A stretch of 64,000 bases of DNA, from assembly GCF_057098645.1 (NCBI RefSeq), contig NZ_CM169472.1. One strand, 5' to 3'. Position 1 is the first letter of the stretch; every line of letters begins with the position of its first letter. The position numbers are program-made. Of the stretch, positions 60,301 to 63,300 are shown piece after piece.

Positions 60301-63300
60301 TTGCTTTTCTGACTCAGGGCGGAGCAGCACCAGAAACGCCAAATCCGCGCCTGCCACCACTCGATTCCGGCATTCTTGGCGGCTACATTGCGCCCGATAA
60401 TCTCACCATCACGTTATCGGTGGGTCACTCATTGTTTGATGAGCGCTTTGGCCTTGCGCCACAGATGCCAAAAAAGCTGCAGAAGATGACGCGTTTCCCC
60501 AACGACTCGCTGGATGCGGCGTTATGCCATGGTGATGTGTTGCTACAAATTTGCGCCAACACCCAGGACACGGTGATCCATGCACTGCGCGATATCATCA
60601 AACACACGCCGGATTTGCTCAGTGTGCGCTGGAAGCGGGAAGGGTTTATTTCCGATCACGCGGCGCGTAGTAAAGGCAAAGAGACGCCGATTAATTTGCT
60701 GGGTTTCAAAGACGGCACTGCCAATCCCGATAGCCAGAATGATAAGTTGATGCAAAAAGTGGTGTGGGTAACGGCAGATCAGCAGGAGCCTGCGTGGACA
60801 ATCGGTGGCAGCTATCAGGCAGTACGCTTGATTCAGTTTCGAGTGGAATTTTGGGACAGAACGCCGCTGAAAGAACAGCAGACAATTTTTGGCCGTGATA
60901 AGCAAACCGGTGCGCCGATGGGAATGCAGCATGAGCATGATGTGCCTGATTACGCCAGCGACCCGGAAGGGAAGGTGATCGCGCTGGACAGCCATATCCG
61001 GCTGGCGAATCCCCGCACGGCGGAGAGTGAGTCCAGCCTGATGCTGCGTCGCGGCTACAGTTATTCGTTGGGGGTCACCAACTCCGGACAACTGGATATG
61101 GGGTTGCTGTTTGTCTGCTACCAACACGATCTGGAAAAAGGCTTCCTGACAGTACAAAAAAGGCTCAATGGCGAAGCGCTGGAGGAATACGTTAAACCTA
61201 TCGGCGGCGGTTATTTTTTTGCGCTGCCGGGAGTGAAGGACGCGAACGATTATCTCGGAAGCGCATTATTGCGGGCCTAATGTTTTTAGGCGGATAAGGC
61301 ATTTGTGCGCAGATGCCTGATGTGAATCCTGCTGAAAGCACACAGCTTTTTTCATCTCTGTCATCACTCTGTCATCTTTCCAGTAGAAACTAATGTCACT
61401 AAAATGGTGTTTTATAGTTAAATATAAGTGAATATATTGTTGCAATGAATGCGAGATCTGTTGTACTTATTAAGTAGCAGCGGAAGTTCCCGGCAGTGAT
61501 AGTCAGTCACTATGGAGATCGCGGATGGTAACGTCCTGTACTGGACATGTTTTAGATAATCAACGCGCCACCACTCGCGGAGTTTTCTCCTCCGGTAGTC
61601 ATCTCGTCACTTTGCATTTTCAACCTCATCCTTTCTTTTCATGTGTTACCGACGCCGTAAACGGTGCGCGTAGCCGTTTTTCGGCATTTTATCCAAAAGC
61701 AAACTATGGCTTACAAGGAAGCCAACCCTCTGATGTTCGTGCGCATAATCGCGCTGCCAACGGCGCGTGTGATGAATACAAACAACTCAAGGTGCTCTCC
61801 ATGGGAAGACAAAAAGCAGTGATCAAAGCTCGTCGCGAGGCAAAACGTGTGCTGAGACGGGATTCGCGCAGCCATAAGCAGCGTGAAGAAGAATCGGTCA
61901 CCTCGCTTGTGCAGATGAGCGGCGTAGAAGCCATTGGTATGGCCCGCGACAGTCGCGATACTTCGCCCATCCTCGCGCGAAATGAAGCGCAATTGCACTA
62001 TCTAAAGGCTATTGAGAGTAAGCAGCTGATATTCGCTACGGGCGAAGCCGGGTGCGGAAAAACCTGGATCAGCGCAGCAAAAGCGGCAGAGGCCCTGATA
62101 CATAAGGATGTCGACAGGATTATCGTCACCCGTCCAGTTCTGCAAGCCGATGAAGATCTTGGCTTCTTACCTGGAGATATCGCAGAAAAGTTTGCTCCCT
62201 ATTTTCGCCCGGTATACGACGTGCTGGTCCGGCGCTTAGGGGCTTCCTTTATGCAGTACTGCCTGCGACCGGAAATAGGGAAGGTGGAAATTGCGCCGTT
62301 CGCCTATATGCGTGGACGTACCTTTGAAAATGCAGTTGTCATTCTTGACGAGGCGCAGAATGTGACTGCCGCGCAAATGAAAATGTTTTTAACCCGCCTC
62401 GGGGAGAACGTGACGGTTATCGTTAACGGTGATATCACGCAATGCGATTTACCTCGCGGCGTGCGCTCCGGATTAAATGACGCACTGGAACGTTTCGAAG
62501 AAGATGAAATGGTCGGGATCGTCCGATTCGGTAAAGAGGATTGCGTACGTTCGGCACTTTGCCAACGTACGCTACATGCATACAGTTAAGTGTATTATCG
62601 GTGCAGAGCCCGGGCGAACCGGGCTTTGTTTTGGGTGTTTATGCCCGGACTAGCGCTTTTTCTGAAACCACCATTTTTATTTGCCCCTGGCTGGTGAAGT
62701 GTACGCTCATCCTGTGGCTTTTTTGTAGTTGCTGATAGAGCTCATCAGGTATTGCTAAGCTCTCTGCATATTCTTGCGGCGTATATTGGTAGGCTGCATG
62801 ATGCTGCTGTTTTTGAAAACGCAGCTTATTGTACAGCGCCCAGACAATTAACACGACGGCATTCGCCACTGCCAGCAAAAAATAGAACTGAAGTCGGCTT
62901 CGGGCCTCGCTTTGCCAGTAATAACCCGTCAGCAGATCCATGGCGAATAAGAATATGAACAAAGCAAATAATGTCCACAAGATGGTTGTGGCAACATAAT
63001 CAACCAGTAAACGTACTGGCGATTGTCGGGTCGTAATAATTAAATTGTTCATATTAACCTCTCAGAATCCCGCGATCAGGACTTACCCAACGGGCGCGTT
63101 GCTTTTTAGGCATCAACATGACTCGTGTAAATGATACCAATGTCGTTGCCAGGCTCAGCATCCAGAAAATAACCGGGAACCAAATAATCCAGAAAAGCGA
63201 TGAAGTCAGATTATGCTCATAGCGATTCTCAATCATCAGGCTGACAATAAATTGCAGTAAACATAACGTACACAATAATATTCCGGCAGTATGTGTCGCA

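What the first reader, a model, noticed from the sequence alone, without database searches (positions are those of the whole stretch)
61358..61376. Canonical Pho box about 150 bp upstream of phoH
CTGTCATCACTCTGTCATC has two 7-bp direct repeats at 11-bp spacing, matching the PhoB site consensus. This supports phosphate-starvation control of phoH here.
Basis: partly seen in the sequence, partly recalled or inferred. Interest (0 to 1): 0.12.

Follow-up and report, generated by a model that had tools for sequence, protein, structure and literature searches.

The report
Known PhoB site before phoH
The repeat is the already-characterised binding site that lets the phosphate-starvation regulator PhoB switch on the E. 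coli phoH gene, so the finding is correct but ordinary; the long, conserved stretch between this site and the conserved PhoH start is less well understood.

Summary
CTGTCATCACTCTGTCATC lies at 61358-61376. It is the only exact match to CTGTCAT-N4-CTGTCAT in the window; every other match needs three mismatches.

I built a PhoB weight matrix from 58 published ChIP-seq sites, leaving phoH out. The site scores 18.85 of a possible 24.0 bits. It ranks 2nd of about 128,000 window positions and 6th of the 59 ChIP sites (P about 1.3e-7 per position).

The window is E. coli O145. The same 18-mer is the published motif under the phoH ChIP-seq peak in K-12, where phoH RNA and sigma-70 occupancy fall in a phoB deletion.

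A PhoB-like site sits at the same position in 73 of 77 Enterobacteriaceae phoH loci. It usually ends 9-10 bp before a GAnACT -10 hexamer.

Verdict: already known, low interest.

One correction is needed. "About 150 bp upstream of phoH" holds only for the long K-12-style ORF (ATG 61525, 149 nt away). The conserved start that RefSeq annotates is ATG 61801, 425 nt away.

The stretch between the two starts is a translated leader. Its reading frame is never interrupted in 79 loci, yet its peptide drifts (dN/dS about 0.8). It contains hairpins supported by compensatory changes and matches no Rfam family. That is worth a separate look.

The parts
61358..61376 (+). Pho box of promoter phoH P1. It has two 11-bp direct-repeat units (CTGTCATCACT, then CTGTCATC...). 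The classical 18-mer is 61358-61375; the 18-mer in the phase used by the ChIP-seq motif is 61359-61376.
   Evidence: Sequence. Only exact match in the window. 18.85 bits with the phoH-excluded matrix. Identical to the published ChIP-seq motif TGTCATCACTCTGTCATC. Exact in 8 of 9 E. coli-type sequences compared. Position conserved in 73 of 77 Enterobacteriaceae loci.
61386..61391 (+). Probable -10 hexamer of P1, GAAACT, with the A at position 2 and T at position 6 of a -10 element. It lies 10 bp after the classical 18-bp box. I predict the P1 start near 61398 but did not verify it.
   Evidence: In 49 of 56 distinct promoter versions, an 18-mer scoring at least 8 bits ends exactly 9 nt before a GAnACT-type hexamer: GAGACT 28, GACACT 8, GAAACT 7. 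That a Pho box sits 10 bp upstream of the -10 is established knowledge of PhoB promoters, not something I tested here.
61416..61469 (+). ArcA-P operator overlapping the constitutive promoter P2. Direct repeats GTTAA (61417), GTGAA (61428) and GTTGC (61439) are 11 bp apart, with a distal GTTGT at 61460.
   Evidence: The block is conserved in all genera examined. Park et al. 2013 (PMC3798270) report a 60-bp ArcA-P footprint at phoH covering three consecutive repeats plus a distal one about 22 bp away, overlapping P2, and ArcA repression of phoH. My assignment of the repeats to these coordinates is an inference from the sequence.
61514..61527 (+). Upstream ribosome-binding site and ATG (GGAGATCGCGG-ATG). 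This opens the long ORF, or leader ORF.
   Evidence: SD plus ATG are present in 79 of 79 distinct loci, 270-282 nt before the core ATG. The GGAGA and ATG columns are invariant in the 60-sequence alignment.
61525..61800 (+). Translated, structured leader. In this window, as in K-12, it forms the N-terminal 92 codons of a 354-aa PhoH. Local hairpins lie at 61533-61546, 61575-61596, 61651-61688 (with an inner helix at 61662-61676), 61708-61723 and 61744-61774.
   Evidence: No internal stop in the ATG frame in 79 of 79 loci, against 3.9 and 6.2 stops in the other two frames. dN/dS is 0.84 or 0.72 here against 0.033 in the core. Covariation: 131 cells changed on both sides against 41.6+-7.5 in shuffles, 0 of 500 shuffles as high. 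No Pfam domain before residue 107. No Rfam family.
61801..62589 (+). Conserved PhoH core coding sequence (262 aa plus stop), preceded by the Shine-Dalgarno AAGGTG at 61789-61794.
   Evidence: RefSeq annotates phoH from this ATG. All 80 related loci match from residue 1 of this form. Codon positions 1 and 2 are 94-99.9% conserved against 69-86% for position 3. The Pfam PhoH domain scores 1e-76. Ribo-RET lists phoH among genes with an in-frame internal start; the paper's text does not give the codon's position.

Best explanation
The 19-mer is the Pho box of promoter phoH P1.

Under phosphate limitation, PhoR phosphorylates PhoB. A PhoB dimer then binds head to tail to the two 11-bp repeat units. 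Each unit is a 7-bp CTGTCAT followed by a 4-bp spacer.

The box takes the place of a -35 element. It lies 10 bp upstream of a weak -10 hexamer (GAAACT, 61386-61391). Bound PhoB recruits sigma-70 RNA polymerase and transcription starts near 61398.

Induction is modest because a second promoter, P2, lies downstream. P2 is constitutive and repressed by ArcA, and it supplies basal phoH mRNA.

Shown: the sequence match, matrix score, conservation and geometry (here); PhoB occupancy and PhoB-dependent RNA and sigma-70 occupancy in K-12, for the identical sequence (literature).

Inferred: the -10 hexamer, the start site, and transfer of the K-12 results to this O145 strain.
For: - Exact double CTGTCAT at 11-bp spacing, unique in the window.
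- The matrix built without phoH gives 18.85 of 24.0 bits: rank 2 of 127,966 window positions and rank 6 of 59 ChIP sites.
- Fitzgerald et al. 2023 (PMC10294691) list the motif TGTCATCACTCTGTCATC at the phoH ChIP-seq peak, with ChIP score 11 and RNA of 37,076 in wild type against 13,375 in the phoB deletion. Sigma-70 occupancy is more than 2-fold lower in the deletion.
- The window is 98.2% identical to K-12 MG1655 over the aligned parts of 61200-61900, and the 19-mer is exact there.
- The best forward-strand hit lies 405-435 nt from the core ATG in 73 of 77 loci, against 3.5% expected if position were uniform. Median score is 13.9 bits against a maximum of 9.8 in control stretches.
- Across 35 sequence variants, T1, A5, T6, T12 and G13 never change, and G2 and T14 hold in 34 of 35.
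- The distance from box to GAnACT hexamer is fixed.
- In the most divergent Escherichia sequence, similarity is lost immediately upstream of the box but kept from the box onward.
[quoted passage not shown] 1993.
Against: - I tested neither PhoB binding nor the P1 start site in this strain. I could not read the original footprinting paper, so its details rest on my memory and on citations in other papers.
- The spacer CACT is not A/T-rich.
- The proposed -10, GAAACT, is weak and begins with G.
- The effect of deleting phoB on phoH RNA is only about 2.8-fold.
- E. albertii and one Escherichia sp. keep only one half-site, so the box is not indispensable across the genus.
Confidence: 0.95

Rival explanations
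1. PhoB binds the site but it has no effect on transcription, as for most of the intragenic PhoB sites found by ChIP-seq. On this view phoH is driven essentially by P2.
For: Most PhoB-bound sites in K-12 have no detectable regulatory effect. phoH keeps about 36% of its RNA in a phoB deletion. Reporter work shows high basal phoH promoter activity.
Against: phoH RNA falls significantly, and sigma-70 occupancy falls more than 2-fold, in the phoB deletion. The site is intergenic, points toward phoH, and keeps a fixed distance to a conserved -10-like hexamer across genera. Inert sites are poorly conserved.
Confidence: 0.03
2. The repeat is mainly a site for another OmpR/PhoB-family regulator that also reads 11-bp direct repeats. 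The obvious candidate is ArcA, which binds the same promoter region.
For: ArcA-P protects 60 bp of the phoH promoter and reads direct repeats 11 bp apart. The family shares this site architecture.
Against: The ArcA-type repeats (GTTAA, GTGAA, GTTGC) lie 40-90 bp downstream of the box, at 61417-61464, and match the footprint length reported. The box's half-sites are TGTCA, the PhoB core, and it ranks among the best PhoB sites. PhoB occupies it in vivo.
Confidence: 0.01
3. It is a chance direct repeat, or a by-product of replication slippage, in an intergenic spacer rich in repetitive REP sequence, and has no function.
For: Generic 7-bp repeats at an 11-bp offset occur about 4-9 times per window. 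The spacer upstream varies through REP insertions and deletions. One repeat unit has been lost in two Escherichia lineages.
Against: Only 4.8e-4 exact matches to the specific 14 bases are expected per window. Position and the PhoB-core bases are conserved in 73 of 77 loci through 35 sequence variants. PhoB occupies the site in vivo.
Confidence: 0.01

Closest known systems
Pho boxes of the E. coli pstS, phoA and phoB promoters (PhoB-activated, sigma-70 dependent)
   Same: Two TGTCA-containing direct repeats 11 bp apart, placed where a -35 element would be and pointing toward the gene. PhoB occupies them in vivo. The leave-one-out matrix score is in the same range: pstS 23.7, phoB 21.6, phoA 19.8, phoH 18.85 bits.
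   Different: The spacer is CACT rather than A/T-rich. There is a single box, whereas pstS has tandem boxes (from my own knowledge). Induction is much smaller, about 2.8-fold against hundreds-fold for pstS and phoA, because constitutive P2 lies downstream. The transcript reaches the conserved coding sequence only after about 400 nt.
ArcA-P direct-repeat operators (Park et al. 2013)
   Same: Same regulator family and the same 11-bp repeat architecture, and one lies in the same promoter region.
   Different: The half-site is GTTAA-like, not TGTCA. It lies downstream over P2 and represses rather than activates.
Transcriptionally inert PhoB sites (Fitzgerald et al. 2023)
   Same: PhoB binds them and they match the same motif.
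   Different: Those sites are mostly intragenic, poorly conserved and show no change in sigma-70 occupancy. The phoH site is intergenic, conserved and has measurable effects.

Membership tests
Pho box (PhoB~P binding site of a Pho-regulon promoter) | Two direct repeats with a TGTCA core, 11 bp apart centre to centre | tested here: met
   CTGTCAT at 61358 and at 61369. It is the only exact match in the window.
Pho box (PhoB~P binding site of a Pho-regulon promoter) | Scores like proven PhoB sites on a weight matrix built without it | tested here: met
   18.85 of 24.0 bits, rank 6 of 59 ChIP sites, P = 1.3e-7 per position.
Pho box (PhoB~P binding site of a Pho-regulon promoter) | A/T-rich spacer between the repeats. 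This is a consensus preference rather than a strict requirement. | tested here: inconclusive
   The spacer is CACT. The five spacer positions add only 1.2 bits, with C at two of them scoring negative. Several proven sites also have G+C-rich spacers, for example rmf and gloC.
Pho box (PhoB~P binding site of a Pho-regulon promoter) | Replaces the -35 element: about 10 bp upstream of a -10 hexamer and pointing toward the regulated gene | tested here: met
   GAAACT lies 10 bp after the 18-bp box. The spacing from box to GAnACT hexamer holds in 49 of 56 distinct promoter versions. I did not map the start site itself.
Pho box (PhoB~P binding site of a Pho-regulon promoter) | PhoB occupies it in vivo or in vitro | not testable with these tools
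   Literature for the identical sequence in K-12: ChIP-seq peak at 1084845, score 11. From memory, Kim et al. 1993 also showed a PhoB footprint, but I could not read that paper.
Pho box (PhoB~P binding site of a Pho-regulon promoter) | Expression of the downstream gene depends on PhoB and is induced by phosphate starvation | not testable with these tools
   Literature: phoH RNA is 37,076 in wild type against 13,375 in the phoB deletion, a significant drop, and sigma-70 occupancy is more than 2-fold lower. The phoH promoter is induced on phosphate depletion in reporters.
Pho box (PhoB~P binding site of a Pho-regulon promoter) | Conserved at the orthologous promoter in related species | tested here: met
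   73 of 77 Enterobacteriaceae loci have their best hit in the same 31-nt band. The core bases stay fixed across 35 variants. This agrees with Fig. 9 of Fitzgerald et al. as described.

The most novel reading that the evidence does not exclude
The Pho box may not feed straight into phoH. P1 and P2 transcripts carry a leader of about 400 nt that looks like an undescribed, translated and structured control region.

- A ribosome-binding site and ATG (61514-61527) are present in all 79 distinct Enterobacteriaceae loci examined.
- The ORF they open is never interrupted, although its peptide drifts almost neutrally.
- Its frame relative to PhoH flips between an in-frame fusion and an upstream ORF that ends 22 nt into the core ORF or 23 nt before its ATG. 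Both types occur within E. coli.
- The region holds at least four hairpins supported by compensatory changes, plus an invariant hairpin with ACAAGG in its loop. It matches no Rfam family.

The reading is that translation of the leader and its RNA structure gate PhoH synthesis after transcription. Possible routes are translational coupling, protection from Rho-dependent termination, or binding of a protein or small RNA.
Probability: 0.4. Interest if true: 0.5.

Novelty: already known. Interest (0 to 1): 0.12.

Why it matters
For the finding itself, very little. It re-identifies a textbook regulatory site, so annotation pipelines can label 61358-61376 as the phoH P1 Pho box with confidence.

Two practical points follow.
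- The distance to "phoH" depends on which of two start codons is used. Databases disagree: 354 aa in the K-12 tradition, 262 aa in RefSeq.
- E. albertii has lost one repeat unit naturally, which offers a ready-made test of what the box contributes.

The leader downstream would matter more if it proves functional. It would add a post-transcriptional layer to a Pho-regulon gene whose function is still unclear. It would also be an example of an ORF kept open for the act of translation rather than for its product.

Tried and rejected
- The original phoH paper (Kim et al. 1993; PMID 8444794, PMC193217) is not held. The P1/P2 details therefore come from citations and from my memory.
- No held paper prints CTGTCATCACTCTGTCAT. 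The version shifted by one base appears in Table 1 of Fitzgerald et al..
- TTTTCAT at 61349 is 9 bp upstream of the first repeat, and ATGTCAC at 61393 is 24 bp after the second. Neither is in the 11-bp register, so I rejected both as extra half-sites. The matrix gave no second strong site near the box.
- I first considered the conserved GTAAAWATAWTGTTGCA block as a sigma-54 promoter. I rejected that because the GG-to-GC spacing is wrong. It fits the ArcA repeats footprinted by Park et al..
- My first codon-periodicity test pooled loci with different leader frames, which made it unsound. Redone within each frame group, it gave the same answer.
- Rfam gave only a 20-bit match to a Brucella sRNA family whose threshold is 114 bits.
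- The window's leader has an unremarkable folding energy: z = -1.34, with 11 of 100 shuffles folding at least as well. Thermodynamics alone does not support a structure.
- I found no literature in the held library linking phoH to CsrA, to a uORF, or to translational coupling. The resemblance of the invariant hairpin to a CsrA site rests on my memory of the SELEX consensus and is untested.
- Park et al. give no coordinates for P2 in the text, so I did not place P2 exactly.

Full report
**Observation**

Window 61358-61376 reads CTGTCATCACTCTGTCATC. CTGTCAT starts at 61358 and again at 61369, so the repeat period is 11 bp. A search for CTGTCATNNNNCTGTCAT allowing up to three mismatches found 11 hits on both strands. 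This is the only one with no mismatch; the other ten all have three.

A generic 7-bp repeat at an 11-bp offset is not unusual. There are 9 such start positions in the window against 4.1+-2.3 in shuffles. The match to the specific 14 bases is what is rare, expected 4.8e-4 times per window.

**Identity of the locus**

The 701 bases around the site are 100% identical to E. coli O145 chromosomes and are found in 5,417 of 5,426 complete E. coli genomes. The neighbours are efeU, efeO and efeB upstream, and phoH followed by pgaD and pgaC downstream. The box begins 77 nt after the efeB stop codon.

Fitzgerald et al. 2023 (PMC10294691) list 59 PhoB site sequences from ChIP-seq in K-12. I built a log-odds matrix from the 58 sites other than phoH and scored every position of the window on both strands.

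| Measure | Result |
|---|---|
| Score | 18.85 bits of a possible 24.0 |
| Rank in the window | 2 of 127,966 positions |
| Rank among the 59 ChIP sites (leave-one-out) | 6 |
| P per position | 1.3e-7 |
| Expected per window | 0.017 |
| Expected per genome | about 1.2 |

The top hit in the window is the known agp site, which was in the training set. In the leave-one-out ranking phoH comes after pstS, phoB, phoA, yfcJ and agp.

The two half-sites contribute 8.9 and 9.5 bits. The five spacer positions (CACTC) contribute only 1.2. So the half-sites are canonical and the spacer is not.

**Prior knowledge**

Table 1 of the same paper gives TGTCATCACTCTGTCATC as the motif under the phoH ChIP-seq peak at K-12 coordinate 1084845, with ChIP score 11. 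That sequence is identical to window 61359-61376. phoH RNA is 37,076 in wild type and 13,375 in the phoB deletion, a significant drop. Sigma-70 occupancy at the site is more than 2-fold lower in the deletion.

Two other papers cite Kim et al. 1993 for two phoH promoters, an inducible P1 and a constitutive P2. I could not read the 1993 paper itself. My recollection that it showed a PhoB footprint over the box rests on memory only. The site is therefore already known.

**Conservation within E. coli**

I compared nine sequences: the window plus eight fetched from across the identity range.
- The 19-mer is exact in eight of the nine.
- In the ninth, the most divergent (about 90% identity over its aligned part), the only change is T to A in the spacer.
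- In that sequence, similarity to the window is lost immediately upstream of the box and resumes at its first base.
- The spacer upstream varies. This window lacks about 100 bp of REP sequence that K-12, O157 and others carry between efeB and the box.

**Conservation across genera**

One scan of species-representative genomes returned 80 phoH loci. They come from Escherichia, Citrobacter, Salmonella, Enterobacter, Klebsiella, Kosakonia, Buttiauxella, Pluralibacter and other genera.
- In 73 of the 77 loci with enough upstream sequence, the best forward-strand matrix hit within 900 nt lies 405-435 nt from the conserved ATG. If position were uniform, 3.5% would be expected.
- The median score is 13.9 bits, against a median of 3.6 and a maximum of 9.8 in control stretches.
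- Across 35 distinct variants, T1, A5, T6, T12 and G13 never change, and G2 and T14 hold in 34 of 35. These positions form the two half-site cores.
- E. coli has the strongest version.

Two Escherichia loci, E. albertii and Escherichia sp. MOD1-EC7003, keep only the promoter-proximal CTGTCATC. That is what loss of exactly one 11-bp unit would leave. Their scores fall to 2.5 and 1.7 bits.

**Promoter geometry**

The hexamer GAAACT (61386-61391) lies ten base pairs after the classical 18-bp box. In 49 of 56 distinct promoter versions, an 18-mer scoring at least 8 bits ends exactly 9 nt before a GAnACT-type hexamer: GAGACT 28, GACACT 8, GAAACT 7.

This is the arrangement established for PhoB-activated promoters, where the box replaces the -35 element. 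It predicts a start near 61398, which I did not verify.

Further downstream is a block conserved in all genera. It holds the repeats GTTAA, GTGAA and GTTGC at 61417, 61428 and 61439, with GTTGT at 61460. This fits the 60-bp ArcA-P footprint that Park et al. 2013 describe at phoH: three consecutive repeats plus a distal one about 22 bp away, overlapping P2.

**Mechanism**

Phosphorylated PhoB binds the two repeat units as a head-to-tail dimer and recruits sigma-70 RNA polymerase to the weak -10 element. This adds a starvation-induced component to the basal transcription from P2, which ArcA represses. That arrangement explains why induction is only about 2.8-fold and why reporters show high basal activity.

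**Which phoH start?**

| Start codon | Product | Distance from 61376 | Basis |
|---|---|---|---|
| ATG 61525 | 354 aa | 149 nt | Long ORF, as in the K-12 annotation |
| ATG 61801 | 262 aa | 425 nt | RefSeq annotation in O145 and in K-12 |

All 80 related loci match from residue 1 of the short form. Ribo-RET lists phoH among E. coli genes with an in-frame internal initiation site and reports locally enhanced synonymous-site conservation there, though the text gives no coordinate. The Pfam PhoH domain covers residues 149-353 of the long ORF, and nothing matches before residue 107.

**What lies between the two starts**

This was the unexpected part.
- The upstream SD and ATG (GGAGATCGCGR-ATG) are present in all 79 distinct loci.
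- The ORF they open is in frame with PhoH in 52 loci.
- In 23 loci it is in another frame, 97-98 codons long, and ends 22 nt into the core ORF.
- In 4 loci it is 84 codons long and ends 23 nt before the core ATG.
- It never ends earlier than that.
- The ATG frame has no internal stop in any locus. The other two frames average 3.9 and 6.2 stops, and a shuffled leader stays open only about 2% of the time.

The peptide is hardly constrained. dN/dS is 0.84 in the fused group and 0.72 in the overlapping group, against 0.033 for the core, and there is no codon periodicity.

Both types occur within E. coli.
- Four of the eight fetched sequences carry a 1-bp deletion that puts ATG 61525 out of frame with the core.
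- In those, the TAA at window 61658, which would have closed the new frame, has become CAA.
- By sequence similarity, about 3,406 of 5,426 complete genomes are of the fused type, like this window. About 1,964 are of the frameshifted type. I did not check the frame genome by genome.

**RNA structure in the leader**

RNAalifold on 60 distinct leaders predicts local hairpins. I tested the seven local helices (35 pairs) with the pair-count controls.

| Measure | Observed | Shuffled | Shuffles as high |
|---|---|---|---|
| Cells forming a standard pair | 96.1% | 91.6+-0.3% | 0 of 500 |
| Pairs with a change on both sides | 17 | 9.8+-1.4 | 0 of 500 |
| Cells with a change on both sides | 131 | 41.6+-7.5 | 0 of 500 |

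Sliding the 3' partners by 1-3 columns drops pairing to 29-50% and leaves at most 45 doubly changed cells. The covarying helices map to window 61575-61596, 61651-61688 (with an inner helix at 61662-61676) and 61750-61767.

A fully invariant hairpin, UGGCUU-ACAAGG-AAGCCA (61707-61724), says nothing either way. The same is true of two invariant long-range pairings, one of which involves the core Shine-Dalgarno.

Caveats:
- The tested structure was derived from the same alignment.
- All sequences come from one family.
- The shuffle count is not a probability.
- The single-sequence folding energy is unremarkable, z = -1.34.
- No Rfam family matches, and I found no paper on a phoH leader or uORF in the held library.

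**Verdict**

The finding is correct and already known, so interest is low. The most novel reading my evidence does not exclude concerns the translated, structured leader that the Pho-box promoter transcribes, not the box itself.

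Noticed in passing
window 61514-61822: The upstream SD and ATG are present in all 79 distinct Enterobacteriaceae loci, and the ORF they open never ends early. 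It is fused to PhoH in 52 loci. In 23 it ends 22 nt into the core ORF, and in 4 it ends 23 nt before the core ATG. Its peptide drifts (dN/dS 0.72-0.84 against 0.033 for the core). Both frame types occur in E. coli: about 3,406 genomes are of the fused type and 1,964 of the frameshifted type, judged by similarity.
   Followed up: partly
window 61533-61774: The leader contains hairpins supported by compensatory changes, at 61575-61596, 61651-61688 and 61750-61767. None of 500 shuffles reaches the observed covariation, and slid controls fall to 29-50% paired. No Rfam family matches, and the single-sequence folding energy is not significant.
   Followed up: partly
window 61707-61724: A hairpin, UGGCUU-ACAAGG-AAGCCA, is invariant in all 60 aligned sequences and has GGA at the loop-stem junction. 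From memory it resembles a high-affinity CsrA site. I found no supporting literature and ran no test.
   Followed up: no
window 61510-61518 with 61795-61803, and 61517-61522 with 61819-61824: There is long-range complementarity between the upstream ribosome-binding region and the region around the core ATG. CUAUGGAGA pairs with UCUCCAUGG in the minimum-energy fold, and GAUCGC pairs with GUGAUC in the consensus fold. Both sides are nearly invariant, so covariation cannot test either pairing.
   Followed up: no
window 61416-61469: A block of direct repeats (GTTAA, GTGAA, GTTGC, then GTTGT) is conserved in all genera examined. It fits the published 60-bp ArcA-P footprint overlapping phoH P2.
   Followed up: partly
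window about 61315/61316: This O145 window lacks about 100 bp of REP (BIME-type) sequence that K-12, O157 and most sampled strains carry between efeB and the Pho box. One REP-like copy remains, at about 61288-61325.
   Followed up: partly
L015 (E. albertii) and L011 (Escherichia sp. MOD1-EC7003), about 415-435 nt before the core ATG: Only the promoter-proximal CTGTCATC remains, as if one 11-bp repeat unit had been deleted by slippage. Matrix scores fall to 2.5 and 1.7 bits, which predicts loss of PhoB activation of P1 in these lineages.
   Followed up: partly
window 40207-40224 (+): AGTCATATTTCTGTCACA is the best PhoB matrix hit in the window at 19.9 bits, and lies 36 nt upstream of the agp ATG. 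It is a published PhoB ChIP-seq site, and agp RNA rises in the phoB deletion, which suggests repression.
   Followed up: partly
window 56392-56409 (-): TTTCACTCCATTGTCACA scores 14.4 bits on the PhoB matrix. It lies inside a hypothetical gene on the minus strand between putP and efeU. It may be one of the inert intragenic sites.
   Followed up: no
L009 (E. coli EC596) 1963-3191; L055 (Citrobacter amalonaticus S646): In EC596 an IS3-family element is inserted in the phoH leader, at about window 61726. That separates P1 and P2 from the core gene. In L055 the Pho box lies 543 nt rather than about 422 nt from the core ATG, which implies an insertion of about 120 nt.
   Followed up: no
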